Positions 1 through 49,265 of a stretch of DNA of 64,000 nt are shown one piece after another. Source of the DNA: Trypanosoma brucei (lineage: Eukaryota). How positions within the stretch are numbered: position 1 is the stretch's first letter; every line of letters begins with the position of its first letter. The notes under the pieces were generated by a model that saw nothing but the letters and a program-made list of their open reading frames with translations, was not told where the DNA came from and searched no databases. The stretch covers positions 992,001-1,056,000 of the forward strand of contig CM000207.1 of assembly GCA_000002445.1 (NCBI GenBank), read 5' to 3'. Both the position numbers and the translations under genes were made by a program.

Positions 1-204
1 TATCTAATTCACAAACAATGCGTCACCTTGAGGTGGCTGTTCACTACGAACTTTGTTACGCTTGGTTCCTCAATTTTTGGGTTGGACTCACCACTCATTG
101 TGATCGGCTACGTTGTGGTACCCGGTTTATTGACTCTCTGCCTCTAGTGGCACATTATTAACTGTACATGCCACCGTGCTTTTCGCCCTTATTTGCTCCC
201 TTTA

Positions 205-245
205 CGGTGGCCAATTTATATTTAACTTCTTCTTCATTTTGAGTG
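205..245 (+). promoter_or_regulatory. Polypyrimidine tract followed by an AG; candidate spliced-leader acceptor region upstream of transporter copy 1. Equivalent elements lie at about 2223-2263 and 4218-4258.
   Basis: The run ttaacttcttcttcattttgAG lies immediately 5' of the long pyrimidine-rich leader that precedes the ATG at 357. This is typical kinetoplastid trans-splicing signal architecture. Confidence 0.4.
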
Positions 246-356
246 CCTTATTTGCTGTCATCACTCTTTAATTTTATATTTGGGCTGATTCTTATAACCT
301 TGTCACTACTATTTATACATACCCTTGTATCTTACGTTAGATCACACTTCTTACCT

Positions 357-1796
357 ATGAGCAGCACAGACAATGATATCGTTGAGGAGCCCCGCAGTTT
401 CCGGAAGGAATTAGAGAACAGTAACGTTAGGGGTGTGTTGTTGTTTGTATTCATTGATGGTGCTGCGTCCTCCATATGGTCTTCCCAACCGTACCAGGTG
501 ATGGTCAGTCGCCTTGCAGGTGATACTGCAGTTGGTTGGGTATCCGCTGCCGCTGGAGTCGCACAAATCGTTGGCGCATTGATAGCTGGTGGTGTTCGCA
601 ATGTGCCCCGTCAAGTCATCTGCCGCCTCAGCGCCTTTTGTGGTTTGGTTGCTGTGATCATGTCAGTTTATGGTATTACAACCCAAGATATAATGATATA
701 TTACTTTGCTTCTGCGCTGTGGGGCATGTATGGAGGGATGGCGTTCACGGGGACTGAAGCGCTGTTTGCTGACAGTGTTGAATCAGGAAAGCGCGGCTTC
801 GTGTACAACCTGAAGTGGATCAATGAAACAACAAGCTCATGCGTTGGCTCCCTTATCCTGCTTATCATGACACTCTACCTTGGAAACGACTGGGATACAA
901 ATGTCTTGAAGATTCTCATGTATACCGGTCTTGCCGTTCACCCCACCGCTTTCTTTGCTTTACTCGGCATGAAAGACAAAAACATTCTCCACGTTGATGA
1001 TGGGTGTGAAGATTGCGAGCAATCCGCATCGGAAGCAAGCCAACGTCGACTGACTGATGGTGACTCATCAACCAAACCTTTACTGGGAGGAACTAAGGAT
1101 ATAATCGAAGAGGACGGCTGGGATGAAGAATCTGAGGAAGAGGAAAGAAATTGCTGTGACTACCTCTGTACTGGGGTCACATCCTCCTGGCAATGGCTCT
1201 TCACTGTGTCAGCTTTACCGTTTTTGCTTAGTCTATCTGACCTTCTGATAGCTACGGGTTCAGGTATCACGTTACAATATATATCTTTGTACTTCATTGA
1301 AAAACGTCACGTAACTCCTATTATGTTTTTCATTACAAACATTGCCTCCAATATCTGTATCGCGCTTTCTTCTACGATGGTGCGTTATCTCAGCGAGCAT
1401 CACCTTGATCGTGTGAGTGCCACCATACTCGTACGCACACTTAGTGCATCACTGTTGCTAACAATGGGTGTGATTGAACTTCCTCTTGTTGCGCTTCTAC
1501 CGATATATGTTTGCCGTAATGCTTTAATGAATTCCACCGCGGGAGTTACACGCAGTATCATTATGGACTGCGCTCGCAGGGAGAACCGTGCGATGTGGGC
1601 TGCATTCGAGTGTTTTGTTTCTTTCATGTGGTCGGCAAGTTCTGTAATGGGCGGATACATTGCTAGTGCGAAGGGATATAAGTATACATTTGTCATCACT
1701 GCCCTAATTCACTTTATTGCTATGTTTGTATTGGTGCCGGCCATATCTGGTGTGCGGCAGTTGGACAGACACGCAAAAGCGAAATCACGAACTTGA
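357..1796 (+). CDS. Major-facilitator-superfamily-like 12-TM transporter, array copy 1 (type I). CDS trimmed to first ATG (MSSTDND...).
   Basis: 479-aa product with about 12 hydrophobic helices and an acidic Cys-rich central loop (DDGCEDCEQSASE...EEDGWDEESEEEERNCC) between helices 6 and 7, which is MFS architecture. The ORF-track start at 243 is a GTG inside the pyrimidine-rich 5' leader. Confidence 0.8.
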   Translation: MSSTDNDIVEEPRSFRKELENSNVRGVLLFVFIDGAASSIWSSQPYQVMVSRLAGDTAVGWVSAAAGVAQIVGALIAGGVRNVPRQVICRLSAFCGLVAVIMSVYGITTQDIMIYYFASALWGMYGGMAFTGTEALFADSVESGKRGFVYNLKWINETTSSCVGSLILLIMTLYLGNDWDTNVLKILMYTGLAVHPTAFFALLGMKDKNILHVDDGCEDCEQSASEASQRRLTDGDSSTKPLLGGTKDIIEEDGWDEESEEEERNCCDYLCTGVTSSWQWLFTVSALPFLLSLSDLLIATGSGITLQYISLYFIEKRHVTPIMFFITNIASNICIALSSTMVRYLSEHHLDRVSATILVRTLSASLLLTMGVIELPLVALLPIYVCRNALMNSTAGVTRSIIMDCARRENRAMWAAFECFVSFMWSASSVMGGYIASAKGYKYTFVITALIHFIAMFVLVPAISGVRQLDRHAKAKSRT

Positions 1797-2374
1797 GTGG
1801 CATTGGTGAGGGAATGTTGTTTGTTGCTTTGTTGGTGTCGTGTCTGCAACTCATATTTGGGAATGCGTGGGATCAGGAGCGATTGCCATGGGTCTTTGCT
1901 TTGGAAAAGATCTCTTTTTTTTTTGTTGATTGCTTACTTGTACTACGTGTTGGTAGAACGGGCGCTTACGGGACTACATGCACTACTCCATATTTACCGC
2001 TGTTGGGTTTGCACAGGGAAATTAGTTTCGTGTCCCTCTCTTTCATTTTTAATTTTTTTTTACATCAACTTTGTTACGCTTGGTTCCTCAATTTTTGGGT
2101 TGGACTCACCACTCATTGTGATCGGCTACGTTGTGGTACCCGGTTTATTGACTCTCTGCCTCTAGTGGCACATTATTAACTGTACATGCCACCGTGCTTT
2201 TCGCCCTTATTTGCTCCCTTTACGGTGGCCAATTTATATTTAACTTCTTCTTCATTTTGAGTGCCTTATTTGCTGTCATCACTCTTTAATTTTATATTTG
2301 GGCTGATTCTTATAACCTTGTCACTACTATTTATACATACCCTTGTATCTTACGTTAGATCACACTTCTTACCT

Positions 2375-3787
2375 ATGAGCAGCACAGACAATGATATCGT
2401 TGAGGAGCCCCGCAGTTTCCGGAAGGAATTAGAGAACAGTAACGTTCGAAATGTGTTGTTGTTTGCATTCCTTAATGGTGCTGCGTCCTCCATATGGTCT
2501 TCCCAACCGTACCAGGTGATGGTCAGTCGCCTTGCAGGTGATACTGCAGTTGGTTGGGTATCCGCTGCCTCGGGGACCACCCAAAGTATTAGCGCATTGA
2601 TAGCTGGTGGTGTTCGCAATGTGCCCCGTCAAGTCATCTGCCGCCTCAGCGCCTTTTGTGGTTTGGTTGCTGTGATCATGTCAGTTTATGGTATTACAAC
2701 CCAAGATATCACTGTCATTCTTCTTGCTTCTGCGCTGTGGGGCATGTATGGAGGGATGGCGTTCACGGGGACTGAAGCGCTGTTTGCTGACAGTGTTGAA
2801 TCAGGAAAGCGCGGCTTCGTGTACAACCTGAAGTGGATCAATGAAACAACAAGCTCATGCGTTGGCTCCCTTATCCTGCTTATCATGACACTCTACCTTG
2901 GAAACGACTGGGATACAAATGTCTTGAAGATTCTCATGTATACCGGTCTTGCCGTTCACCCCACCGCTTTCTTTGCTTTACTCGGCATGAAAGACAAAAA
3001 CATTCTCCACGTTGATGATGGGTGTGAAGATTGCGAGCAATCCGCATCGGAAGCAAGCCAACGTCGACTGACTGATGGTGACTCATCAACCAAACCTTTA
3101 CTGGGAGGAACTAAGGATACAATCGAAGAGGAGAATGAGTCAAAAAAGTATCGTAAGTGCCTCTGTGGTCGGATAGCCTCCTTCTGGCAATGGCTCTTCA
3201 CTGTGTCAGCTTTACCGTATTTGGTTGCTGCAACCAATTTGATTGCTTTTATTGGTTCAGGAATGACAATGCAATACATTTCCCTTTATTTTATAAAAGA
3301 ACGTCATGTAACTCCTATTATGTTTTTCATTACAAACATTGCCTCCAATATCTGTATCGCGCTTTCTTCTACGATGGTGCGTTATCTCAGCGAGCATCAC
3401 CTTGATCGTGTGAGTGCCACCATACTCGTACGCACACTTAGTGCATCACTGTTGCTAACAATGGGTGTGATTGAACTTCCTCTTGTTGCGCTTCTACCGA
3501 TATATGTTTGCCGTAATGCTTTAATGAATTCCACCGCGGGAGTTACACGCAGTATCATTATGGACTGCGCTCGCAGGGAGAACCGTGCGATGTGGGCTGC
3601 ATTCGAGTGTTTTGTTTCTTTCATGTGGTCGGCAAGTTCTGTAATGGGCGGATACATTGCTAGTGCGAAGGGATATAAGTATACATTTGTCATCACTGCC
3701 CTAATTCACTTTATTGCTATGTTTGTATTGGTGCCGGCCATATCTGGTGTGCGGCAGTTGGATAGGCGCGGCAAGGTTTTGCGGTAA
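2375..3787 (+). CDS. MFS-like transporter, array copy 2 (type II, 470 aa; divergent patches and a different C-terminus ...QLDRRGKVLR).
   Basis: Same architecture as copy 1. It differs in discrete patches (NVLLFAFLNG, SGTTQSIS, ITVILLAS, loop TIEEENESKKYRKCLCGRIASF, LVAATNLIAFIGSGMTM) and in the last 8 codons. Confidence 0.8.
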   Translation: MSSTDNDIVEEPRSFRKELENSNVRNVLLFAFLNGAASSIWSSQPYQVMVSRLAGDTAVGWVSAASGTTQSISALIAGGVRNVPRQVICRLSAFCGLVAVIMSVYGITTQDITVILLASALWGMYGGMAFTGTEALFADSVESGKRGFVYNLKWINETTSSCVGSLILLIMTLYLGNDWDTNVLKILMYTGLAVHPTAFFALLGMKDKNILHVDDGCEDCEQSASEASQRRLTDGDSSTKPLLGGTKDTIEEENESKKYRKCLCGRIASFWQWLFTVSALPYLVAATNLIAFIGSGMTMQYISLYFIKERHVTPIMFFITNIASNICIALSSTMVRYLSEHHLDRVSATILVRTLSASLLLTMGVIELPLVALLPIYVCRNALMNSTAGVTRSIIMDCARRENRAMWAAFECFVSFMWSASSVMGGYIASAKGYKYTFVITALIHFIAMFVLVPAISGVRQLDRRGKVLR

Positions 3788-3980
3788 TTGAGTTTGTGTT
3801 GTTGGGATGGTTCAGTATTCTGCTGACCATTTGCTGTACGTTTGTGTTTTTGTCGACATAGTTTTTCGTTATGTGTAGTTTGCTGCAGGTTAGGAAGTTG
3901 AGTCATCTAGGAGAGCACGCATTTTGCCCGTATGTGGAATTGGTATCTTAATTGAGAATATAACGTCTCCAGTTGTGGGA

Positions 3981-4003
3981 TATATATATATATGTATATA
4001 TAT
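3981..4003. repeat. (TA)n microsatellite in the type-B spacer.
   Basis: tatatatatatatgtatatatat. Confidence 0.9.
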
Positions 4004-4369
4004 TCTACATGCATATCTAATTCACAAACAATGCGTCACCTTGAGGTGGCTGTTCACTACGAACTTTGTTACGCTTGGTTCCTCAATTTTTGGGTTGGAC
4101 TCACCACTCATTGTGATCGGCTACGTTGTGGTACCCGGTTTATTGACTCTCTGCCTCTAGTGGCACATTATTAACTGTACATGCCACCGTGCTTTTCGCC
4201 CTTATTTGCTCCCTTTACGGTGGCCAATTTATATTTAACTTCTTCTTCATTTTGAGTGCCTTATTTGCTGTCATCACTCTTTAATTTTATATTTGGGCTG
4301 ATTCTTATAACCTTGTCACTACTATTTATACATACCCTTGTATCTTACGTTAGATCACACTTCTTACCT

Positions 4370-5809
4370 ATGAGCAGCACAGACAATGATATCGTTGAGG
4401 AGCCCCGCAGTTTCCGGAAGGAATTAGAGAACAGTAACGTTAGGGGTGTGTTGTTGTTTGTATTCATTGATGGTGCTGCGTCCTCCATATGGTCTTCCCA
4501 ACCGTACCAGGTGATGGTCAGTCGCCTTGCAGGTGATACTGCAGTTGGTTGGGTATCCGCTGCCGCTGGAGTCGCACAAATCGTTGGCGCATTGATAGCT
4601 GGTGGTGTTCGCAATGTGCCCCGTCAAGTCATCTGCCGCCTCAGCGCCTTTTGTGGTTTGGTTGCTGTGATCATGTCAGTTTATGGTATTACAACCCAAG
4701 ATATAATGATATATTACTTTGCTTCTGCGCTGTGGGGCATGTATGGAGGGATGGCGTTCACGGGGACTGAAGCGCTGTTTGCTGACAGTGTTGAATCAGG
4801 AAAGCGCGGCTTCGTGTACAACCTGAAGTGGATCAATGAAACAACAAGCTCATGCGTTGGCTCCCTTATCCTGCTTATCATGACACTCTACCTTGGAAAC
4901 GACTGGGATACAAATGTCTTGAAGATTCTCATGTATACCGGTCTTGCCGTTCACCCCACCGCTTTCTTTGCTTTACTCGGCATGAAAGACAAAAACATTC
5001 TCCACGTTGATGATGGGTGTGAAGATTGCGAGCAATCCGCATCGGAAGCAAGCCAACGTCGACTGACTGATGGTGACTCATCAACCAAACCTTTACTGGG
5101 AGGAACTAAGGATATAATCGAAGAGGACGGCTGGGATGAAGAATCTGAGGAAGAGGAAAGAAATTGCTGTGACTACCTCTGTACTGGGGTCACATCCTCC
5201 TGGCAATGGCTCTTCACTGTGTCAGCTTTACCGTTTTTGCTCGCTTTGGGTAATTTGCTTATTTCCGTTGGCTCTGGAGTCACAATGCAATACATTTCCC
5301 TTTATTTTATAAAAGAACGTCACGTAACTCCTATTATGTTTTTCATTACAAACATTGCTGTCAATATCTGTATCGCGCTTTCTTCCACGATGGTGCGTTA
5401 TCTCAGCGAGCATCACCTTGATCGTGTGAGTGCCACCATACTCGTACGCACACTTAGTGCGTTTTTCATGCTAACAATGGGTGTGATTGAACTTCCTCTT
5501 GTTGCGCTTCTACCGATATATGTTTGCCGTAATGCTTTAATGAATTCCACCGCGGGAGTTACACGCAGTATCATTATGGACTGCGCTCGCAGGGAGAACC
5601 GTGCGATGTGGGCTGCATTCGAGTGTTTTGTTTCTTTCATGTGGTCGGCAAGTTCTGTAATGGGCGGATACATTGCTAGTGCGAAGGGATATAAGTATAC
5701 ATTTGTCATCACTGCCCTAATTCACTTTATTGCTATGTTTGTATTGGTGCCGGCCATATCTGGTGTGCGGCAGTTGGACAGACACGCAAAAGCGAAATCA
5801 CGAACTTGA
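4370..5809 (+). CDS. MFS-like transporter, array copy 3 (mosaic: 5' two-thirds identical to copy 1, internal patch shared with copy 2, 3' end like copy 1).
   Basis: Identical to copy 1 through about aa 290. It then reads LLALGNLLISVGSGVTMQYISLYFIKERHV (the TMQYISLYFIKERHV stretch matches copy 2), AVNICIAL and SAFFMLTM, and ends HAKAKSRT like copy 1. Confidence 0.8.
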   Translation: MSSTDNDIVEEPRSFRKELENSNVRGVLLFVFIDGAASSIWSSQPYQVMVSRLAGDTAVGWVSAAAGVAQIVGALIAGGVRNVPRQVICRLSAFCGLVAVIMSVYGITTQDIMIYYFASALWGMYGGMAFTGTEALFADSVESGKRGFVYNLKWINETTSSCVGSLILLIMTLYLGNDWDTNVLKILMYTGLAVHPTAFFALLGMKDKNILHVDDGCEDCEQSASEASQRRLTDGDSSTKPLLGGTKDIIEEDGWDEESEEEERNCCDYLCTGVTSSWQWLFTVSALPFLLALGNLLISVGSGVTMQYISLYFIKERHVTPIMFFITNIAVNICIALSSTMVRYLSEHHLDRVSATILVRTLSAFFMLTMGVIELPLVALLPIYVCRNALMNSTAGVTRSIIMDCARRENRAMWAAFECFVSFMWSASSVMGGYIASAKGYKYTFVITALIHFIAMFVLVPAISGVRQLDRHAKAKSRT

Positions 5810-6447
5810 GTGGCATTGGTGAGGGAATGTTGTTTGTTGCTTTGTTGGTGTCGTATCTGCAACTCATATTTGGGAATGCGTGGGATCAGGAGCGATTGCC
5901 ATGGGTCTTTGCTTTGGAAAAGATCTCTTTTTTTTTTTGTTGATTGCTTACTTGTACTACGTGTTGGTAGAACGGGCGCTTACGGGACTACATGCACTAC
6001 TCAATATTCACCATTGGTAAGTTCCTTGGTCAGTGCCTGTTATTTTCAAATCTTTTTTTCTTTTTTTCGTTTTTCAATGGGCGTAATAAGTAGACGGTAA
6101 CATTCATCCTTGTATTATCTGTGAGTGCCTGTCTGGCGTGTGTGGCCTCCATTTGGTTGAATAATTGTAGGTTCCCTTCTATGTGTCGCTGGCGTTTGCC
6201 ACTGATTTTATTACCCTTTTCCGCTCTTATCTGCTGTTGCGGCCGTTATACCTCTGCTCCCAGTACCCTATTTTTCTTGGTGGGGGAAGCCGTTGTATTG
6301 GCGTGATGCATTATATATGCAGATGCACTGTCTAATCTCCGCGTTTTGTCCTTTCTGTGTTGTCCCTGTCCATGCTTAGTTGGTTTTCCTCCTGGCTCTC
6401 CTTTGTTATCCGTCGTTCAATTTTAATAGGCGTTTCTGCATTCTTTG

Positions 6448-7071
6448 ATGTCATGTGGGAAGCCCACGGACAATAACTCCAGGCTTGGTGGCGGTTGCGA
6501 TGAAGGTGCCCCCGATTTTTCCTCACAGCAAGTAACGGATAGGCATTTGCATGGCTACATCGCTATGGCGCTGCCTCTTGTTCATGTTCTGCGGGAGCAA
6601 CACACGTTGCGTGCCGAGGCAATTGCTCGCCAAATTACGGAGAAGTGGGGTGGTGAAGCAACTGCCGTGGAAAACTTGTTAAAACTTTTGGAGGAATACA
6701 ATGCGGAAACGGGTAACAATGTTGATGATACTTCCAGTCGTAGCACTAACTCGAGCCGGCAAGGTAGCACAGATGATGATGATTCCTTAAGCGAAGACTG
6801 TGAAGATGCGTACTCGGGTGACGAGTGTAATGGAAGTACCCTGCAAACCCTACATGATGTTGTTGAGCGTGTGCGATCATTGGAGCCTTATACACATTCT
6901 ATTCCTGAGGCTGTTCGCGAACCATCAACTGTTGCCGAGGCCGCAGAACCGCCGGTATTGCACGGAGATGACGGAGAGGAGTGTGAAGAGGAGAGACGAC
7001 TATTAGAAGACATAGACCGCGCTGTGAAGCGAGAAATGGATAGATTGTCGATAATCAGGAAACATCGGTGA
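6448..7071 (+). CDS. Hypothetical acidic protein of about 207 aa (D/E/S-rich: DDDDSLSEDCEDAYSGDE).
   Basis: ORF on the sense strand of the transcription unit, in a 2-kb gap between genes. Reading from the first ATG after a TTG start. No recognisable domain. Confidence 0.35.
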   Translation: MSCGKPTDNNSRLGGGCDEGAPDFSSQQVTDRHLHGYIAMALPLVHVLREQHTLRAEAIARQITEKWGGEATAVENLLKLLEEYNAETGNNVDDTSSRSTNSSRQGSTDDDDSLSEDCEDAYSGDECNGSTLQTLHDVVERVRSLEPYTHSIPEAVREPSTVAEAAEPPVLHGDDGEECEEERRLLEDIDRAVKREMDRLSIIRKHR

Positions 7072-34508: not shown

Positions 34509-36689
34509 ATGGGCAGTGATAGTAAATCTAGTAAGTCCAAGGACAAGAACTTCTCATCAAAGGGTAAAATTGAGAAGTATAACAAGGATGGTACCGAAAC
34601 AATTTTGATCATGGGGCGTCCCTTTCGTATTGTGCAGAGGTTAAGTGAGAAGGTGCTTAACCCGGAGGCGAAAAGCTCGAAGAAAAGCAGCAAGAAAGCT
34701 AAGGATGTGTACTCCTACATTGTGGTTGTTGAAAACATTGAAGCTTTACCAATGTTTGCCAGGTATGTCGTTGTGAAGCGTACCTTTTTCAAGATAGACG
34801 AGGTGTTGTTGGCTCATCGGGAGCCTGAGATTTTGAATCGCGTTCGCGATAAGGGAATCCTGCACGTGTTCCACAGTGAAGTAACACGGAATGATGGGCG
34901 TTTGGGAACAACCGTGGCGATGGAGTACTGCCCCGGAAGTTTGGAACAGCGCCTGCAGCAGGAGACTCGGATGTTAGAAAGTGAAGTGGTACAAGTGTTG
35001 CTAGCGCTGGCTAGTGTGTTGGGTTACTTGCACTCTAGGCAGCCCCCGGTTGCACACCGTAACATTAATCCAAGCAATGTGTTAATTCACTCGGAGTCGG
35101 CAGGAGCGAGCGCATACCGCCTCTACAACTTTAGAAGTGCCATGACGGAGGCGTACCACTGCGAGAACCACGAGGAGGTAGTGGCGGCCATGGAAGACTT
35201 TGCCCGCTACACCACGGCAGGGTACCGGGCGCCTGAAATGTTAGACCCAAGTAGTCACAAGCGTATTGATGAACAGGTAGATATGTGGGCTCTTGGTGTG
35301 CTGCTGTACTACACAATGTACCAGCGCCTGCCCTTCACGGATGCATGCTGGGGGCTGGCAAGAAAACCCAAGTTACGCTACCCCGTGGAAGCTGAAGTGT
35401 GGTACACGGGCTCACTACGCATCGTGCTTGAGCATCTTCTTGAACCAGATCCGGAGAAGAGGTGGGATGCGTTTGCTCTCATCAACTTCATGCGTTTCGA
35501 CAATGACCTATGCAGACACATTGGACCCTTCTGCTTCTCGCAGACTGAGCGGCCCGAGGGATGGGAACCGCAGGACGTGAAGGTAATTGGCCGCCCAGTT
35601 CCAGCCAAAGTTCTCCCGGAGAGGTTGCGAAATACTGGCCAGTCCGACGATCCGGCTGCTGCAGCGCGTGACAACAGGGACGAAGCGGCTGCCACCTCCG
35701 TCAAGAGCCGCACAGCGGCACAGGAGTCTGGAGATAATGATCAAATGGTTCTCAAGGCAGTAACTGCGCTGAGTTCAGATACCGCTTCCACAGATCCCGA
35801 GGTGCTAGCCTACCGTGAAAAGCTCATTCGTGAACAGGAGGAGGCATGGCAAGTGGCAGAAAGCGCACACAAAAAGCGGGATAAGGAAGACAAGGATGGG
35901 GCGACCTCTGGACCGGCAGATGTTGATTCATTGTTTGGTCCAACTGAAAAGAAGGAAGCTGTCAAGGAAAACAAGGCATCTGCTATTGACGACTTATTTG
36001 GTGGCATGGAGACACAACCATCACAGTCTCAAAAACCAACAACGGATGACCTCTTTGGAGGCGCCTCTACAGCTACTGCGAGCAACCAAATCCCACCCCA
36101 GGGGTCCCAAGTTGGAGCTAACGACAGTTGGAAGGATGATCTCTTCGCTGCGCCACCTCAGCAACCACAAATGCAACCTCAACCGGCCTTTCCAATGGCA
36201 GCTGACAGTAGTTGGAGCACCGGAGCACCAACATCGGTGCCAATGAATCCAACCGGCGGCATGATGGGTCAACAACAGGCCCCCATGGGATGGGGAAATG
36301 GAGTAACAGCTCCGGGTTTCCAACCAATGCAAACTCCACAAATGCAACAACAAGTTCCTGGTGGATGGGGAAATGGAGCAACAGCTTCGGGTTTCCAACC
36401 AATGCAAACTCCACAAATGCAACAACAAGTTCCTGGTGGATGGGGAAATGGAGCAACAGCTCCGAGTTTCCAACCAATGCAAACTCCACAAATGCAACAA
36501 CAAGTTCCTGGTGGATGGGGAAATGGAGCAACAGCTCCGGGTTTCCAACCAATGCAAACTCCACAAATGCAACAACAAGTTCCTGGTGGTGCCCCCGGTT
36601 TCATGGGCGGAAACGACCTATTCCAAAGGCCACAGCAGCAACAGCCACAGCAACCAGAGAAGGACCCCTTCGCCAGTCTCTTCAAGTAA
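34509..36689 (+). CDS. NAK/AAK1 (Ark/Prk)-family protein kinase-like protein, predicted pseudokinase. Long low-complexity tail with DLF/DPF adaptor or clathrin-binding motifs and 4 x 25-aa Q/P/M-rich repeats.
   Basis: Kinase subdomains: HRNINPSNVLI aligns to AAK1 HRDLKVENILL, so the catalytic Asp is replaced by Asn. YRLYNFRSA aligns to VLCDFGSAT, so DFG is replaced by NFR. The NAK-specific activation segment ...GYRAPEM... is conserved, followed by DMWALGVLLYYTMYQRLPF. Tail motifs: VDSLFGP, IDDLFGG, TDDLFGG, KDDLFAA, NDLFQ, DPFASLF. Confidence 0.8.
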   Translation: MGSDSKSSKSKDKNFSSKGKIEKYNKDGTETILIMGRPFRIVQRLSEKVLNPEAKSSKKSSKKAKDVYSYIVVVENIEALPMFARYVVVKRTFFKIDEVLLAHREPEILNRVRDKGILHVFHSEVTRNDGRLGTTVAMEYCPGSLEQRLQQETRMLESEVVQVLLALASVLGYLHSRQPPVAHRNINPSNVLIHSESAGASAYRLYNFRSAMTEAYHCENHEEVVAAMEDFARYTTAGYRAPEMLDPSSHKRIDEQVDMWALGVLLYYTMYQRLPFTDACWGLARKPKLRYPVEAEVWYTGSLRIVLEHLLEPDPEKRWDAFALINFMRFDNDLCRHIGPFCFSQTERPEGWEPQDVKVIGRPVPAKVLPERLRNTGQSDDPAAAARDNRDEAAATSVKSRTAAQESGDNDQMVLKAVTALSSDTASTDPEVLAYREKLIREQEEAWQVAESAHKKRDKEDKDGATSGPADVDSLFGPTEKKEAVKENKASAIDDLFGGMETQPSQSQKPTTDDLFGGASTATASNQIPPQGSQVGANDSWKDDLFAAPPQQPQMQPQPAFPMAADSSWSTGAPTSVPMNPTGGMMGQQQAPMGWGNGVTAPGFQPMQTPQMQQQVPGGWGNGATASGFQPMQTPQMQQQVPGGWGNGATAPSFQPMQTPQMQQQVPGGWGNGATAPGFQPMQTPQMQQQVPGGAPGFMGGNDLFQRPQQQQPQQPEKDPFASLFK
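36288..36590 (+). repeat. Four tandem 75-bp in-frame coding repeats (25-aa unit GWGNGATAPGFQPMQTPQMQQQVPG) inside the kinase-like gene.
   Basis: The unit starts at 36288, 36363, 36438 and 36513, a period of exactly 75 bp. Copies differ by 1-2 nt (V/A, G/S). Confidence 0.9.
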
Positions 36690-37854
36690 TGTTTTACATG
36701 ACTGCAATACTGGCACAGAACAGCATCATACGTCACCCCCCCCCCAAAAAAAAAGGGGGGGTTAGTTGGGGTACATTTTTTCTTAACAAAAAAAAAGAGA
36801 AAGGTAAAAGAAATAAAGAAATACCAACTAACAATTAAGAGAAGGAAAGGAACCCGCAGGTCATACCCTCTTTATTCCACCTCTCTTTCCTTCTGTTTTG
36901 TTCTGTTCGGTGTTTAAACCTGATTCAACATGTTCAATTTTCTGCTGTGTCTCCCCATTCTCAATCACATCCACCTCTTTTTTTATTTTTATTTTTAGTA
37001 TCAGTGTTTCATTTTTTTTTCTTTTTTCGTTTATCATCACTTTATTATTATTATTATTACGTCCCTCCGTTGTTTGTGCTTTTTGATATACTTGCTAATG
37101 CTTTGAAGTGTGTGAGGGGAAGGGGAGGAGGGAGAGAAAAAAGAAAAAATGAAGAGGGGAGGGGAGGGGGATTTATCAAGAGAGAACAAACAAAAGGAAA
37201 GAAACGGTTTTGTTTTCTTTTTGAGAAAATAAATAAATAATGAATAACATATGTTTTATCATAACCTCCATTTGCGGATTCCAATGAAGGGCGTGGCAAA
37301 ATCCATAAGGAAGAGGGTTGTGCGCATGTGTTTCTTTTTATTATTATTATTTGCTTACGTTCATAAAAAGTAGAGGAATGGAATGGAAAGAGATGGGAAG
37401 TGGAGGGAATGAATGAATGAATGAATTGGAAACCGAAATGATTAGAATAAAAAAAAATGAAGGAAAAAGCAGGTGGTTTACCGCCGCTCATAGACCAAGC
37501 ATTTACATACGTGCATAGATACAAAAAAAAAAGAAATATATAAATATATATTTATATACATGTACTGGTGTGTATTAATGTTTATTTGTATGTATTTTTT
37601 ATATATTTTGGTGTGCGTACGTTTGCGTGTGTGAGCGAAAGGGGGAGGGGGGAGGGGGGAGAGCAGACGGGGACGAAAAGGGGTGGAAATATAATGTTTA
37701 CTTTTTTTTTTCTTCTTCTCTCTCTCTCTTTAAAACTTTAATTTCCGTTAGGAAAAGAGGGGGAAAAAAGATAACGTGTGGGTATGAGAGTTTATTAGGA
37801 ATCCTGATTGGTGTTGGTCGGTTCCGTGTGTGTGTGTATGTATGAATGTATGTG

Positions 37855-37876
37855 TCTCTCTCTCTCTCTCTCTCTT
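37855..37876. repeat. (CT)n microsatellite, preceded by (GT)n at 37826-37838.
   Basis: ctctctctctctctctctctct. Confidence 0.9.
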
Positions 37877-39544
37877 GTGGCCAGCCTCATGGTGGGACCG
37901 CGCGTGGAAGAAAGAAAAAAAGAAAAGGAAAAGAGGAAAGAAACAAAACAAATAGGAAAGAAAATGAAATGAAAGAGTTTTTAGTACCCATCACTGCCTT
38001 ATGGGTGGATTCGTCACTAGCCATCGTCCTGCGCACTCTTTTTTTTTTTTGAAAAAAAAGATTTTCTTCTCTTCCTTTTCATCTCTTTTCATATGGGTTT
38101 ATTATTGCTCCTCATTCCACACATACGCAAACAAATATATATATATATAATCCCTTCCTTTCACTTCACAAAGCAATTCAGGGATTCCATTTGCCATCAA
38201 TGCGAACTTGCTAGGACAACATTTTCTTTTTAAAAAAAAACAAATTGCAGGGGCACGGTGTGTCTGTTCGTACCGGGTTACCCCTTTTTGTTTGTCAATT
38301 ATGCACAAATTTGTGCACTGCTTACGCCATACAAACATTATTATTATCATTATTATCATGCAGTGATTTTCTCTCTTGTCTACAAAGAAGAAGAGGCACA
38401 TGTTCGTGGTTTTTTTTCAATTTTTTTTGTTGTTGTGTGTTTGTATTTAACTTCGCTGTCGTGGATGCATGCGAGTTATCGTCTTGGAGGTCATAAAACG
38501 CAAGGACGGAAATAACAAAAATAAACAATACCAACGCCACAAATGCTGAAATACCGTCTTTATTCCCTTCATTTATCTTTCCCTTGTTTTTTCTTTAAAA
38601 AATTATTTTAAGTTGTTGTTGTTTTTTTCCTATAAATATATTTATTTATATTTCCTGTCGTTACGGCGGTCACGGCATTATTTGTGTGGATCGATTGTCA
38701 CTCATATGTCGAGGAAAGAAAGTTGAAGGTATGAAGATGAACTGAGAGCAGAGATTGGGAAATAATAATAGTAATAATAATGAAAAGAAAAGAAAAGAAA
38801 ACTCAGAAGGCGTCATTTTGTGTAAGGTCCGGGAACTTGTATCCTTTATTATCATTATCACTATTATTATTATTACTGTGCTTGAAAAAAAAAATTATAT
38901 GTATTTATTTGGTTTTTTTCCTCTTTTGAAAGAAGAAAAAATACCAGAGAAAACAAAAAAAAGGAGGACGAAGAGAAAAATCGTATTGTCAACTCACTTG
39001 CTATTTGATCTGAACGTGTGTAAGAGATGAGGAAAATGGACTTTAATGAGTCAACATATTTCAAAACTGAACAAAAAAAGAGAAAAAAAAAAAAAGAAAG
39101 ATGCTCGACACGATAAAGGGAGTGAAGAAGAACCAAAAGGAGGAAAAATATTTAAAAAAAGAGAAGAAAAGAAACGAGAAGAGAAGAGAAGATAAAAGAA
39201 TATGCGTCGGAAACAACAAAAACAACAATTTTTTTTAAAAAAGGTAAAACAGCACAAAAACAAAAAAAGTGAGAAGGCTGCGTGACGGTTACTTGGGAGT
39301 CGAAAACTGCTATTGGCATGTTGCATCATTCCATTCAGTGTTACATGGACCCTGAGGTGCCACGCGCATTATTCCTATTGAAACAAATCTTTTTTTTTTG
39401 TAGTTAATCTTATTAAATATGTGTTTTCTTTTTTTTTTTCTTTTTTCTTTTTTGATGTTTTTAAACTCCCCTCTACACCGCGATTATTCGCGTCTTCTGA
39501 TGCCTTCCAACAAGGCCTACAAAGCTGCGCGTGTCTTTTCTGTT

Positions 39545-39575
39545 TGTTTTGTTTTTGTTTTTGTTTTTGTTTCTC
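39545..39575. repeat. (GTTTTT)n microsatellite.
   Basis: tgttttgtttttgtttttgtttttgtttc. Confidence 0.85.
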
Positions 39576-41613
39576 TCTCTCTTTTTGCTCGTAGTGAAAC
39601 AACAAATGAAACGGAATATTTGCTGGACCTCACGTGTTTCTTTGCTATTCTTCTTTCTTTGTTTATTTGGTGTTTGTTTATGTTGTGTGGAGTTGAGACC
39701 AAAAAGAGATGAGAAGTGTGTAATCATTCTCAGCTTTTATTGCTCAGTCTCTTTCTGTTTTGTTAACGCTTTTCTTTTTTTTTTTTTATTGACCTTCCTT
39801 AACTTTCGTTTTTATTTTATAAAAAAAAACAAAAAAGAAGAAATTATATCTATCTTTCTTTCCTTTTCTCTTTTTTTTTTATATCCTCTTTTCGTACAAT
39901 TCCACTGCCCTTTCAATCTCTTTTACCCTTTCTTTTTCTTGTTGTTGTTCCTCTTTCCCACTTGTGTGATGATATCATATACGCTGCCTATTTACAACTA
40001 TTTTTTTTTCCTTCTTATTTCTCTCTTTTTTACTTTTCTTTTATTTTTTTTTTAAAACAAACAAATATGCGCTGATGTCAAGTGGAGACGGAAACTGAGG
40101 TGCTAAAAGGCAAGTTTTTAAACGTACCTGAAGCAACTAGTATCACTTTCTTCTCTATTTTCATAAAGAAAAAAAACATTGTAGTAGTTGACATATATAC
40201 ATATATCAGTCTAGCTGTTCTTTTGGGTTCTGAATAGGCAGTTAGAAGTACAAACGAATAAATTTTGTAAAAATAAAAAAAAACAGTACAAAAGCATCGG
40301 GGGGAACGGAGCGAGTTTGCATCTTCATCCGCATAAAAATCCATTTATACGTACATATATATATATATGCCAGAATCCTTGCGGTTTTATAGGATAACAT
40401 TTATCTCCTTTGGTTCGGCATTATTTTGTGTTATAATATTAAATTGCAGAGTGGCGTCGTGTATCCAAGAGAAAATGGGTGGTGAAAGTAGTGCCCCCCA
40501 ACCGACTAATGATTCGTCCGGCAATGACTTCAGCAACAATGGCAATAATAGCGATAATAATAATTCCAATAGCAGTATTAAAAACGACAATTACAATAAA
40601 CCAGTGCCTGGAGCTGAAGGGCAAAATGACGGGTTGCATTTCCCCCAGCGTCTCGTCTGTCGCCTGCCGGAACGAAATTTTCCACTTCCGGTTTTAACCC
40701 TCAAGGAAGGTCACGGGGTTGCATCAAATACAACTAAGAAGTAACACACATGACAACACGCGTTTGTGCATTTGTTTTGTCTGTAATGTAATGTTAATGA
40801 AATGAAATGAAATAGGGAGGAAAGAGAAAATAGCGTGTTATTAGCGTAGATATGACTCAGGAAAAGGGGAAATGAAGTATTTACAAGAGTGCCATTTCCT
40901 CCCCCCCCCTTCCCTCGTCGTTATTATTTTTACTATTGTGTCGTTATCGCTTTTTTTTTTCTTTTTCACCGTTTTTGGTATTGTTGTTGTTTGTTTTTAA
41001 TTCTTTTGGGGGGGTTCGGTTGAACCCTATGCGTCTCGATATCAAATCCAAGAGAATAAAACAAAAAGGGAAGTTAAGGAGCCGGAGGGCTCTTTTCAAG
41101 GCCCAGCTATGTTTTCTCTTGCAAGGGTACGTATGCGCTTCCTTTGATTTCTTTTTCTGTATGCCGTTTTATGCACGTTCTCCCACTTCGGTCATAATTA
41201 AAAAACAAAGATTCGCATCATTGGTTATTGATAATTTTCCTTCCCTTTTTGTTTTCCCTTTTTTATATTGGTTGCGGTCGCCCAACTTTCGGTACCCCAA
41301 AGTGAGTCTCAAACATCAGCTACACTCTTCCCGTTCGTGTGAAACATTTTGATGTTCCTGCCTTTATTTTTTGGTGATTTTCCCTCCCAAGTTGAATTCG
41401 TTACTTGTTATTACCACTGTTATTCTTATCATCACACTATTATTAATTGCCTTTTGTTGTTTTTGTTGTTGCTTTCGGGTTGCCTCCCATTCTAACACGG
41501 GTGGGCATGTCATGCGAGAGAGAGAGAGAGACGCCAAGACGCGTGCGGGAGAGGGAGTTGAGTAACACCCGCTAAAAACGAAAAAAAAAAAAGGGAAAAG
41601 TTAGCAGCGCCTT

Positions 41614-47606: not shown

Positions 47607-49265
47607 ATGGCAGTTGATCGTATCGGAAACGAGGAGGGCACTACTAAACGGAAAGGGCATGGGTTGCTGTGCCTTCCTGCTGGTGTGATTAAGGAAGTGC
47701 TTTCCTTCCTCCCAGCGACGATAACAGTGCGGGTTATGACCTTTGTTGCGCCTCGGTTTGCATACATTACAAGGAGTGATATACATTGGATGAGCGTGTG
47801 GAACGCATACATAAATGAGTGCACTAGTCGATACTCGCAGAGTGGCCCATTATCTCATCGAAAGGACCGTTTAGAAATGTTGTGCGCGAGCGGGAAAAGT
47901 TATAGCGGGCCGATAATACTTCTCGCGTCGGTGCCGAAGCGGGCGCTACCGAACACGCGTGTCACTAGCAGAGGAAGTGGAAAAATAGCACTAGTGGAAT
48001 GGCGAGACGACCCCAACAGTGAGAAAGAAGGGGGAAAGTGCGACTGCGTGGTGCACCTTATCTTACCAATCAGGTCACTGCCATCACTGTCTGGTAGTCC
48101 GGTCATCGCATCTACTGAGCGCATGGCTGCCCTCCGAATTTCAAGGGTGGAGGATCGCGAAGGGAATGAGGTCGACCATCCTAACGACGGCGAGCACAAT
48201 AGTTTAGGTGTTGGTGTATGCAATACGATGCTGTTACGTAAGGCACTGTGTTTCCTCCACGGTAACAACAGTAACATGCTATTTATTAGGCCAATGATCG
48301 ACGGGCTGCATGCTGTACGACTTCTCTTTTTCTCTTCCAAACAATCTAGCCTCGACCGGCGCGAGGGCACAGCTGAGGAACAGGAAGCGACAATTGTTGA
48401 GTTCATCAACGCTGTTGCATACGCATTGGAGTGCTGCACTTCTCGAAAAGCGTTAGCGCCGGCGGGGACAGCTCGCTTGGCGACGCTGTATTTGGAGACG
48501 GGTTCGGAATCTGTCTTCACGATCGGAAATGACGCTGCAACCGTTGCTGAAAATGCGATCGCCGTAGAAGCTGCCGAAACGGCATCTGGCGGCAGCAACG
48601 ATGGTATATTTTTCTCTCTATTTGACTCACAACCTTCGGAAAAACCGGAAGCCGGTGCGAACGGGCTACGGTACAGCAGTGTGAGCACCCAAGTGTATCT
48701 TTTCCTTCTTCAGCACGTCAGCTTCTCGGACGTGCACGTGCATGTCTTGGAGAACGAGCGAAAGTGTGCAGTGTGTAGCAGGGTACTGAGTCCAACAGGA
48801 CGTGCGGTAGAGTTCCGCTTTTTCTATTCATTGTTTCTTGGTGGCTATCCTCGTTTCTTCGCTAAGATGGTTTTTGCTGAGGCCGATCTCCCACGCACGC
48901 GGATCCAACAGGTCTTCGAGCGTAACTGTAGTCGATATGTGCCAACTTCAGCGACTGATTATTCGTCTAACGAAGAGGATGAAAATGAGGAAGAAACGTT
49001 ACCAATGCTGTGTAATTCGTTCTGTGGGGGATACGGGCGGGTGGAAGTGGACATAAAACCAACCATATCACGAGATGGTTTTGAACGGCTGCGTGAGGCG
49101 CTTGGCTTATCCGCTGCAGTTCTTCCCATGCCAATGCTTTGGAATGTTGTGATGTTGGCAACCGGTGTGGGTGGTGTGGTACTGCGTGAGCAGCAGTCGT
49201 GTTTCGCATCCTACTACAGGACGTCATTCGCCGCCGCCTTTGAGCAGGAGTTTGAGTCCAGTTGA
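47607..49265 (+). CDS. Hypothetical protein of about 552 aa with an N-terminal F-box-like motif.
   Basis: LLCLPAGVIKEVLSFLPATITVRVMTFVAPRF fits the F-box L-P-x-E/V-I/L-x-x-I/V-L-x-x-L core loosely. First ATG after a GTG track start. A T11 run lies immediately 5' of the ATG. Confidence 0.45.
   Translation: MAVDRIGNEEGTTKRKGHGLLCLPAGVIKEVLSFLPATITVRVMTFVAPRFAYITRSDIHWMSVWNAYINECTSRYSQSGPLSHRKDRLEMLCASGKSYSGPIILLASVPKRALPNTRVTSRGSGKIALVEWRDDPNSEKEGGKCDCVVHLILPIRSLPSLSGSPVIASTERMAALRISRVEDREGNEVDHPNDGEHNSLGVGVCNTMLLRKALCFLHGNNSNMLFIRPMIDGLHAVRLLFFSSKQSSLDRREGTAEEQEATIVEFINAVAYALECCTSRKALAPAGTARLATLYLETGSESVFTIGNDAATVAENAIAVEAAETASGGSNDGIFFSLFDSQPSEKPEAGANGLRYSSVSTQVYLFLLQHVSFSDVHVHVLENERKCAVCSRVLSPTGRAVEFRFFYSLFLGGYPRFFAKMVFAEADLPRTRIQQVFERNCSRYVPTSATDYSSNEEDENEEETLPMLCNSFCGGYGRVEVDIKPTISRDGFERLREALGLSAAVLPMPMLWNVVMLATGVGGVVLREQQSCFASYYRTSFAAAFEQEFESS

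What the first reader, a model, noticed from the sequence alone, without database searches (positions are those of the whole stretch)
1..6100. Mosaic three-copy (possibly four or more) MFS-transporter array with alternating spacer types
Three 12-TM transporter genes sit head-to-tail. Copies 1 and 3 are identical for about the first 290 residues. Copy 2 differs in short discrete patches rather than uniformly. Copy 3 carries a copy-2-like patch (…TMQYISLYFIKERHV) inside an otherwise copy-1-like gene. This patchwork looks like repeated gene conversion rather than simple divergence. The spacers come in two types: A (1797-2260) and B (3788-4255, with a unique 230-bp segment and a (TA)n). The first 242 bp of the window are B-type. 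That implies another unit, probably a copy-2-type gene, lies just upstream of the window, and that the true repeat is a roughly 4-kb dimer. A tandem triplet of MFS transporters is reminiscent of the T. brucei MFST cluster that has been linked to suramin sensitivity. If this is that locus, copy-number and mosaic variation would be directly relevant to drug uptake.
Basis: partly seen in the sequence, partly recalled or inferred. Interest (0 to 1): 0.6.

Follow-up and report, generated by a model that had tools for sequence, protein, structure and literature searches.

The report
Known trypanosome drug-transporter gene triplet
This is the already described three-gene MFST transporter locus of Trypanosoma brucei (Tb927.9.6360-80), which affects suramin and aminoglycoside sensitivity. 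Its patchwork copies are real and come from gene conversion, but there is no full fourth gene upstream, only a short leftover of one.

Summary
Three head-to-tail 12-helix MFS genes (true ATG-to-stop: 357-1796, 2375-3787, 4370-5809) are exact matches to T. brucei TREU927 proteins XP_827005/6/7. These lie between IMPase Tb927.9.6350 and a 207-aa protein, so they are the published MFST locus Tb927.9.6360-80.

The differences are strongly patchy. Synonymous divergence is 0.000-0.004 outside seven islands and 0.26-0.36 inside them. The site-pattern topology switches along the gene (25 runs against 66±4 when permuted).

Comparison with T. b. equiperdum and T. b. gambiense shows genome-specific homogenisation of nt 979-1122 and replacement of copy 1's TM7 island. 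That is recent gene conversion.

The 4-kb dimer period is real (97.6% identity against 94.5% at the 2-kb offset). In three related genomes, the DNA upstream of gene 1 is a B-type spacer, then a 312-nt 3' remnant of a copy-2-type gene, then unique DNA. The array is therefore three genes plus a relic, not four or more.

The locus, its three non-identical copies and, probably, its recombination signal are already published. The side observations that may be new are a synonymous-saturated TM7 island and Asp/Asn swaps at two conserved membrane aspartates.

The parts
1..356 (+). Upstream region of copy 1. Positions 1-48 are B-type specific sequence. Positions 49-356 are the tail and 5' leader shared by all three genes.
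   Evidence: 100% identical to 4014-4369. Differs from the A spacer only in nt 1-48. In related genomes it is preceded by the B-head and a 312-nt coding remnant.
357..1796 (+). MFST copy 1 = Tb927.9.6360 (479 aa). Conserved aspartates: D34 and D295.
   Evidence: Exact match to EAN76675.1/XP_827005.1. AF2 model shows a 12-helix MFS fold, pLDDT 81.5. Pfam MFS_1 score 30 bits.
1227..1301 (+). TM7 divergence island of copy 1 (codons 291-315).
   Evidence: 34 of 75 nt differ from copy 3 and from copy 2, as many as from the T. vivax orthologue. 16 of 17 codons that keep the same amino acid use a different codon.
1797..2374 (+). A-type spacer: A-head (3' UTR type of copies 1 and 3, about 1797-2010), a private junction of about 55 nt, then the common tail from 2067.
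2375..3787 (+). MFST copy 2 = Tb927.9.6370 (470 aa). Has N34 and N295, a shorter central loop, and the C-terminus RRGKVLR.
   Evidence: Exact match to EAN76676.1. Pfam MFS_1 score 35.1 bits, above the cut-off. Private islands in TM1, TM2, TM4, the loop, TM7 and the C-terminus.
3788..4369 (+). B-type spacer: private B-head 3788-4013 with a (TA)n tract at about 3980-4005, B-specific 48 nt at 4014-4061, then the common tail from 4062.
   Evidence: The (TA)n length differs between strains.
4370..5809 (+). MFST copy 3 = Tb927.9.6380 (479 aa). Has D34 and N295. It is copy-1-like except for a hybrid TM7 island and two small private patches (S331V; SLL to FFM at residues 365-367).
   Evidence: Exact match to EAN76677.1. 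Site patterns.
5810..6023 (+). A-head copy downstream of copy 3. This is the right end of the repeated region; unique DNA follows.
   Evidence: 1915-2009 against 5929-6023 is 93% identical. The self-BLAST match 1-1998 against 4014-6012 ends here.
6448..7071 (+). Downstream flanking gene, a 207-aa hypothetical protein (EAN76678.1). It marks the end of the array.
   Evidence: Synteny in L001, L003 and L005.

Best explanation
Window 1-6023 is the right-hand 92% of the T. brucei TREU927 MFST array on chromosome 9 (Tb927.9.6360, .6370, .6380). These are three tandem genes for 12-helix major-facilitator transporters. Published work places at least one of them in the lysosome and shows the locus is needed for full sensitivity to suramin, paromomycin, neomycin and G418.

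The array has the form: [312-nt 3' relic of a type-2 gene] - B spacer - gene 1 - A spacer - gene 2 - B spacer - gene 3 - A-head. That is 1.64 copies of a 4013-bp dimer made of a type-1 gene with an A-type 3' UTR and a type-2 gene with a B-type 3' UTR.

The most economical history is inferred, not shown. An old duplication gave a type-2/type-1 pair with different 3' UTRs. The pair was then duplicated to give four genes. A deletion with a clean junction then removed the 5' 1.1 kb of the first type-2 gene.

Since then, repeated short-tract gene conversion and unequal exchange between the copies has wiped out all divergence, synonymous sites included, over about three quarters of the coding sequence and the shared 5' leader. 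Divergence survives only in discrete islands: TM1, TM2, TM4, the central loop, TM7, TM8-9, the C-terminus and the 3' UTR heads. The islands have been shuffled into a different mosaic in each strain.

Shown here: locus identity, structure, patchiness, topology switching, and strain-specific homogenisation.
Inferred: the order of the duplication and deletion events, and the idea that selection for functional difference keeps the islands from being converted.
For: Identity:
- Exact protein matches to EAN76675-7.
- Neighbours are EAN76674 = IMPase Tb927.9.6350 and EAN76678.
- Published descriptions of the locus and its phenotypes: PMC6658743, PMC8911344, PMC13569496.

Fold:
- AF2 pLDDT 81.5, pTM 0.78, 12 transmembrane helices with a disordered central loop.
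- 450 PDB MFS hits at E<=0.001, led by NorA, GlpT and LmrP.

Structure of the array:
- Repeats and spacers.
- Relic plus unique DNA upstream in three genomes, with no decayed homology further upstream.
- Three genes also in the T. b. equiperdum assembly and in T. evansi (PMC8911344 Table 1).

Gene conversion:
- 25 site-pattern runs against 66.5±4.2 permuted, 0 of 20000 permutations as low.
- pS 0.000-0.004 outside the islands against 0.26-0.36 inside.
- In nt 979-1122 the three T. b. equiperdum copies are identical to one another and differ by 15 nt from TREU927 copies 1 and 2. Segments 1-865 and 1410-1440, by contrast, group by gene type across genomes.
- T. b. equiperdum copy 1 carries the type-3 TM7 island.

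General precedent:
- 21 of 47 T. brucei arrays contain chimaeric copies (PMC1855330).
- A chromosome 9 array of 3 (Tbb) against 2 (Tbg) hypothetical genes has PHI p<0.001 and 6 GARD breakpoints (PMC2854126 Table 2).

Outgroup:
- A single syntenic copy in T. vivax and in Leishmania.
Against: - The TREU927 sequence upstream of window position 1 was not available. The relic is inferred from three relatives that are 98.4-100% identical to the window over the shared DNA.
- Copy numbers in short-read or shotgun assemblies can be arbitrary, as the authors of the DAL972 genome say themselves.
- The duplication-then-deletion order is one of several histories that fit.
- Nothing here measures transport, localisation or expression of the individual copies.
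Confidence: 0.9

Rival explanations
1. The mosaic is an assembly artefact. Reads from near-identical repeats or from the two alleles were merged into chimaeric consensus copies, and the real array has uniform copies or a different copy number.
For: Repeat copy number in trypanosome shotgun assemblies is admitted to be unreliable (PMC2854126). DAL972 shows only two genes, one of them a type-1/type-2 chimera. The OVI short-read contigs break at the array.
Against: Each of the three TREU927 isoforms has a counterpart in T. evansi STIB805 (99.6/98.3/99.0% amino-acid identity, PMC8911344 Table 1). The same type-1/type-2/type-1 order, spacers and relic are found in the separately deposited T. b. equiperdum assembly, on a 2.44-Mb chromosome-scale sequence without N. 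Whole-locus deletion was confirmed by Southern blot in Lister 427.
Confidence: 0.04
2. There has been no gene conversion. The copies are young duplicates, and the islands are bursts of adaptive substitution in an otherwise unchanged gene.
For: In the TM1, TM2 and TM4 islands almost all changes alter amino acids, and codons that keep the same amino acid are unchanged.
Against: The TM7 island is saturated at synonymous sites: 16 of 17 codons, and 34 of 75 nt, equal to the distance to T. vivax. The best-supported topology switches between 12|3, 13|2 and 23|1 along the gene. Segment 979-1122 groups by genome, not by position. The 3' UTR heads A and B cannot be aligned with each other. All of this needs old divergence plus later exchange.
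Confidence: 0.04
3. The array in TREU927 really has four or more complete units, with a full copy-2-type gene just upstream of the window.
For: The window starts inside B-type spacer sequence, which follows a type-2 gene elsewhere in the array.
Against: The protein accessions EAN76674 (IMPase), EAN76675-7 (MFST) and EAN76678 are consecutive. Published descriptions give three copies. Three related genomes show only a 312-nt relic and then unique DNA. One of them is 100% identical to the window over 601 nt and overlaps window 1-64.
Confidence: 0.03

Closest known systems
T. brucei MFST locus Tb927.9.6360-80 (Alsford et al. 2012 as cited in PMC6658743; Collett et al. 2019, PMC6658743; Ungogo et al. 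2022, PMC8911344)
   Same: It is this locus. The protein sequences are identical, the flanking genes are the same, and there are three non-identical tandem copies.
   Different: Nothing differs. The papers read here give only overall identities ('at least 92%', 88-99%). They do not describe the islands, the dimer period or the upstream relic.
Mosaic tandem gene arrays of T. brucei shaped by partial gene conversion (Jackson 2007, PMC1855330; Jackson et al. 2010, PMC2854126)
   Same: Chimaeric copies, different histories for coding sequence and UTRs, subspecies-specific mosaics, and terminal UTRs curtailed relative to the internal spacers. Array 84 in Table 2 of the 2010 paper fits this locus: hypothetical protein, Tb09.160.4630, chromosome 9, 3 copies in Tbb, 2 in Tbg, 1 isoform unique to Tbb, PHI p<0.001.
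   Different: I could not prove that the old identifier Tb09.160.4630 corresponds to Tb927.9.6360. The match rests on chromosome, copy numbers and length.
AQP2/AQP3 tandem pair of T. brucei, where chimaeras formed by recombination between neighbours change drug uptake (my own knowledge of the melarsoprol-pentamidine cross-resistance literature; AQP2 and AQP3 are discussed in PMC6658743)
   Same: Tandem paralogous membrane channel or transporter genes that determine drug sensitivity. Exchange between neighbours creates chimaeric genes and can delete a unit. The DAL972 two-gene arrangement, with a 5' type-1/3' type-2 chimera, has this form.
   Different: No resistance phenotype has been tied to any MFST chimera. 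The DAL972 arrangement may be an assembly collapse.
Divergence islands kept by selection in paralogues that undergo gene conversion, such as human RHD/RHCE (my own knowledge of the population-genetic models)
   Same: Near-zero divergence across most of the duplicated unit, with sharp peaks of old divergence.
   Different: Selection on the islands is not demonstrated here. No population data were analysed.

Membership tests
T. brucei MFST locus Tb927.9.6360-80 | Protein sequences identical to the TREU927 reference genes | tested here: met
   All three translated genes are exact matches to EAN76675.1, EAN76676.1 and EAN76677.1.
T. brucei MFST locus Tb927.9.6360-80 | Chromosomal position directly downstream of IMPase Tb927.9.6350 on chromosome 9 | tested here: met
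   EAN76674.1 is the IMPase, and IMPase 1 is Tb927.9.6350. The order ABCG4 - 291 aa - IMPase - MFST - 207 aa - 670 aa is seen in L001, L003 and L004. The window itself does not reach the IMPase gene.
T. brucei MFST locus Tb927.9.6360-80 | Three non-identical tandem copies | tested here: met
   The literature agrees.
T. brucei MFST locus Tb927.9.6360-80 | Lysosomal location and effect on suramin and aminoglycoside sensitivity | not testable with these tools
   Taken from PMC6658743, PMC8911344 and PMC13569496.
Major facilitator superfamily | Twelve transmembrane helices in two six-helix halves joined by a cytoplasmic loop | tested here: met
   The AF2 model has helices 22-54, 56-79, 85-109, 112-139, 146-175, 181-203, then a disordered 213-265, then 284-316, 321-348, 352-372, 377-405, 408-439, 441-459.
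Major facilitator superfamily | Structural similarity to solved MFS transporters | tested here: met
   Foldseek probability 1.00, TM-score 0.54-0.62 to NorA, GlpT, LmrP, sialin, GLUT3 and VMAT2. No specific subfamily stands out.
Major facilitator superfamily | Pfam MFS_1 match above the gathering score | tested here: inconclusive
   Copy 2 scores 35.1 bits, above the 33.4 cut-off. Copies 1 and 3 score 30.0 and 32.8 bits, just below it. The precomputed Pfam annotation gives PF07690 for the homologues.
Tandem array evolving by partial gene conversion | Different segments of the alignment support different relationships among the copies | tested here: met
   Site patterns run 2...2 / 1...1 / 3...3 / 2...2. 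There are 25 runs against 66.5±4.2 permuted, and 0 of 20000 permutations are as low.
Tandem array evolving by partial gene conversion | Paralogues within a genome are more alike than positional orthologues in at least one segment | tested here: met
   In nt 979-1122, T. b. equiperdum copies 1, 2 and 3 are identical to one another and differ by 15 nt from TREU927 copies 1 and 2. TREU927 copies 1 and 2 are identical to each other.
   Three related genomes show a 312-nt 3' relic and then unique DNA. TREU927 has three consecutive accessions. The TREU927 upstream DNA itself was not seen.

The most novel reading that the evidence does not exclude
The divergence islands are not leftovers. They may be functional modules that selection protects from conversion. 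Most lie in helices that, in MFS transporters generally, line or flank the central cavity (TM1, TM2, TM4, TM7).

The islands include Asp/Asn swaps at two membrane-embedded aspartates. Each is Asp in 12 of the 14 homologues outside T. brucei that were aligned. The three copies have D34/D295 (6360), N34/N295 (6370) and D34/N295 (6380).

On this reading the three copies would have different substrate-charge or proton-coupling properties. That could explain how one locus affects both a polyanion (suramin) and polycations (aminoglycosides).

The TM7 island of 6360 is as far from its neighbours as from the T. vivax orthologue. It is absent from the T. b. gambiense and T. b. equiperdum assemblies. 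It would then be an old allele-like module that strains gain and lose by conversion, giving natural variation in drug handling.
Probability: 0.2. Interest if true: 0.55.

Novelty: already known. Interest (0 to 1): 0.25.

Why it matters
The locus is a validated determinant of suramin, paromomycin, neomycin and G418 action in African trypanosomes. Published genetics (RNAi, whole-locus deletion) has treated the three genes as one unit, because they share long identical stretches.

The island map shows exactly where the three proteins differ, and which strains carry which module. This gives a direct design for single-isoform add-back experiments in the existing null mutant.

It also warns that short-read copy-number or SNP calls at this locus will be confounded by conversion mosaics. 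The finding does not change what the locus is understood to be.

Tried and rejected
- Exact-protein look-ups for the TREU927 genes in the contig index found nothing. TREU927 upstream DNA therefore could not be read directly. Relatives were used instead.
- The look-up with the 670-aa downstream protein reached only a T. equiperdum OVI contig that stops before the array.
- A sequence search of the PDB gave only chance antibody hits. The fold search was needed.
- A second, profile-based protein search added no new species. No T. congolense or T. cruzi homologue appeared, so the age of the duplication could not be bracketed more closely than 'after or around the T. vivax split'.
- Alsford et al. 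2012 (PMC3303116) is not held in the library. It is cited only through PMC6658743.
- Jackson 2007 does not name this array in its main text. The link from old identifier Tb09.160.4630 to Tb927.9.6360 could not be proven.
- A search for decayed MFST homology upstream of the relic found none. A slowly decaying fourth pseudogene was therefore rejected in favour of a clean deletion junction.
- Rfam, tRNA and tandem-repeat scans found nothing relevant in the array.


Full report
**What is in the sequence**

Window 1-6100 holds three same-strand ORFs. The ORF tool starts them at GTG codons (243, 2261, 4256) because it uses the bacterial code. The first ATGs are at 357, 2375 and 4370, giving proteins of 479, 470 and 479 aa that end at 1796, 3787 and 5809.

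A nucleotide alignment of the three ORFs as the tool lists them (from the GTG starts) has 1410 invariant columns. There are 99 columns where only copy 2 differs, 25 where only copy 1 differs and 18 where only copy 3 differs. All of these sit in a few tight clusters.

Copies 1 and 3 are identical for 872 nt from the ATG, that is residues 1-291. Copy 3 carries the copy-2 sequence at codons 305-316, identical at nucleotide level.

- Window 1-242 equals 4014-4255 exactly. It differs from the A spacer only in its first 48 nt.
- The B spacer has a private 226-nt head ending in a (TA)n tract.
- The first ~214 nt after copy 3 repeat the head of the A spacer.
- Self-comparison gives 97.6% identity at a 4013-bp offset and 94.5-94.7% at the 2-kb offset.

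**Is the pattern more than chance?**

Yes.
- Of 103 differences between copies 1 and 2, 91 lie within 5 nt of the previous difference (permuted mean 32, maximum 47).
- The longest identical run is 455 nt (permuted maximum 153).
- The string of site patterns for the three copies has 25 runs, against 66.5±4.2 after shuffling. None of 20000 shuffles reached 25.

**What it is**

The three proteins are exact matches to T. brucei brucei TREU927 proteins EAN76675.1, EAN76676.1 and EAN76677.1, in that order.

The neighbouring accession EAN76674.1 is inositol monophosphatase, which is Tb927.9.6350. EAN76678.1 is the 207-aa protein at window 6448-7071. ABCG4, Tb927.9.6310, 646 aa, sits further upstream in the related loci. 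The genes are therefore Tb927.9.6360.6370 and .6380.

This is the published MFST locus:
- RNAi against it gives about ten-fold suramin resistance, and at least one product is lysosomal.
- Deleting the whole locus lowers sensitivity to suramin, paromomycin and neomycin (PMC6658743).
- It also came up in a G418-based screen (PMC13569496).

The fold is MFS:
- The AlphaFold2 model has pLDDT 81.5 and pTM 0.78, with twelve long helices and a disordered central loop at 213-265.
- It matches hundreds of solved MFS transporters, and no subfamily stands out.
- Pfam MFS_1 is just above threshold for copy 2 and just below for copies 1 and 3.

**What lies upstream**

The window stops inside B-type spacer, so I fetched the locus from relatives.

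In T. b. equiperdum IVM-t1 (L003) the window aligns collinearly from L003:9644 at 98.4% over 11.8 kb. There are three genes of 479/470/479 aa.

Upstream of gene 1 in that genome, in T. b. gambiense DAL972 (L001) and in T. equiperdum OVI (L004), the order is the same. Unique DNA follows the IMPase gene. Then comes a 312-nt fragment equal to the last 312 nt of a copy-2-type coding sequence (ending RRGKVLR*). Then comes the complete B spacer.

The OVI contig is 100% identical to window 3477-4077 over this stretch. Its last 64 nt are window 1-64. No decayed MFST similarity exists further upstream, only about 20 nt of weak resemblance at the junction.

That unit is a truncated relic, though. The array is three genes plus 0.2 of a fourth, or 1.64 copies of the 4-kb dimer. 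The three consecutive accessions and the literature agree with three genes.

**Evidence for gene conversion**

Nonsynonymous and synonymous divergence were computed inside and outside seven islands: TM1 25-34, TM2 66-73, TM4 112-118, loop 249-277, TM7 289-317, TM8-9 327-373, and the C-terminus.
- Outside the islands, pS is 0.000-0.004 over 236 synonymous sites.
- Inside them, pS is 0.26-0.36 overall, and 0.6-0.97 in TM2, TM4 and TM7.

Old divergence therefore survives in islands while everything else has been homogenised.

Comparison of eight gene copies from three genomes shows the process at work:
- In nt 1-865 and at the C-terminus, copies group by type across genomes.
- In nt 979-1122, all three T. 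b. equiperdum copies are identical to each other and 15 nt away from TREU927 copies 1 and 2, which are identical to each other.
- T. b. equiperdum copy 1 has the type-3 TM7 island in place of the TREU927 type-1 island.
- T. b. equiperdum copy 2 has a type-1 tract of about 20 nt in TM1.

DAL972 has two genes. The first is type 1/3 in its 5' kilobase and type 2 at its 3' end, followed by a B spacer. That is the product expected from unequal exchange between copies 1 and 2. However, the authors of that genome warn that assembled copy numbers can be arbitrary (PMC2854126).

**Comparison with what is known**

Mosaic arrays are the rule in this organism. Jackson found chimaeric copies in 21 of 47 arrays (PMC1855330). 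[quoted passage not shown]

Its Table 2 lists array 84: hypothetical protein, Tb09.160.4630, chromosome 9, three copies in T. b. brucei and two in T. b. gambiense, one isoform unique to T. b. brucei, PHI p<0.001, six GARD breakpoints. This fits the present locus in every respect I can check. I could not prove the identifier mapping.

The locus, its copy number, its drug phenotype and, probably, its recombination signal are thus already in the literature. I rate the finding 'already known'.

**How it most likely arose and works**

Shown here: the structure, the islands, the strain-specific exchange, and a single syntenic copy in T. vivax (52% identical, with the same neighbours). A single syntenic copy in Leishmania is reported in the literature.

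Inferred history:
- An old duplication produced a type-2/type-1 pair with unrelated 3' UTR heads.
- The pair was duplicated, making the A spacer the junction.
- A deletion removed the 5' 1.1 kb of the first type-2 gene.
- Conversion has since homogenised the shared parts.

In trypanosomes 3' UTRs set mRNA levels (established knowledge). The two UTR types therefore probably allow different regulation of type-1/3 and type-2 genes. I did not test this.

**Details that may be new**

(a) The TM7 island of copy 1 (window 1227-1301) differs from copies 2 and 3 at 34 of 75 nt. That is as much as from the T. vivax orthologue, which differs at 29-35 of 75. Sixteen of 17 codons that keep the amino acid use a different codon. 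Even full saturation would give 11.9 (P about 0.016, a post hoc test). By contrast, the TM1, TM2 and TM4 islands consist almost only of amino-acid changes.

(b) Two aspartates inside TM1 and TM7 are each Asp in 12 of the 14 aligned homologues from outside T. brucei. In copies 1, 2 and 3 they are D/D, N/N and D/N respectively.

(c) The D295-bearing TM7 module is missing from the T. b. equiperdum and T. b. gambiense assemblies. It appears to be present in T. evansi, judging from the 99.58% identity in PMC8911344 Table 1.

These points suggest, but do not show, that the islands are functional modules protected from conversion.

**Verdict**

The suggestion of four or more copies fails, although a relic of a fourth copy exists. 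The locus is well known, so interest is low to moderate, with a modest upside from the island map.

Noticed in passing
window 1227-1301 (copy 1 codons 291-315): The TM7 island differs at 34 of 75 nt from copies 2 and 3, as much as from the T. vivax orthologue. 16 of 17 codons that keep the same amino acid use a different codon, more than expected even at saturation (P about 0.016, post hoc). The flanks are 100% identical. No donor sequence was identified.
   Followed up: partly
window 456-458 / 2474-2476 / 4469-4471 (residue 34) and 1239-1241 / 3236-3238 / 5252-5254 (residue 295 in copy-1 numbering): Two membrane-embedded aspartates are each Asp in 12 of the 14 aligned homologues from outside T. 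brucei. In copies 1, 2 and 3 they are D/D, N/N and D/N. This may be relevant to proton coupling or substrate charge. Not tested.
   Followed up: partly
L001 10001-13500 (T. b. gambiense DAL972): Only two MFST genes are assembled. The first is a chimera with a type-1/3 5' part and a type-2 3' end, followed by a B spacer. This is what unequal exchange between copies 1 and 2 would produce, but it could also be an assembly collapse.
   Followed up: partly
L005 8001-9482 (T. vivax): There is a single syntenic MFS gene, 52% identical, with the same neighbours (ABC, IMPase, and a GDI-domain gene downstream). PMC8911344 reported no orthologue in T. vivax, using a >75% identity cut-off.
   Followed up: partly
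window about 3980-4005; L003 and L001 equivalents: The (TA)n tract in the B spacer differs in length between TREU927, T. b. equiperdum and T. b. gambiense.
   Followed up: no
window 36288-36589: A 75-nt unit is repeated 4.0 times at 97% identity inside the 726-aa ORF 34509-36689. This encodes a 25-residue protein repeat.
   Followed up: no
window about 36700-41600: A 4.9-kb AT-rich stretch (GC 0.30-0.40) has no ORF of 200 aa or more. It sits between two + strand genes and may be a very long UTR.
   Followed up: no
window 1-64000: All ORFs of 200 aa or more lie on the + strand except one, which is nested antisense at 47900-48688. This fits a single polycistronic transcription unit. No tRNA or Rfam family reaches threshold anywhere in the window.
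   Followed up: no
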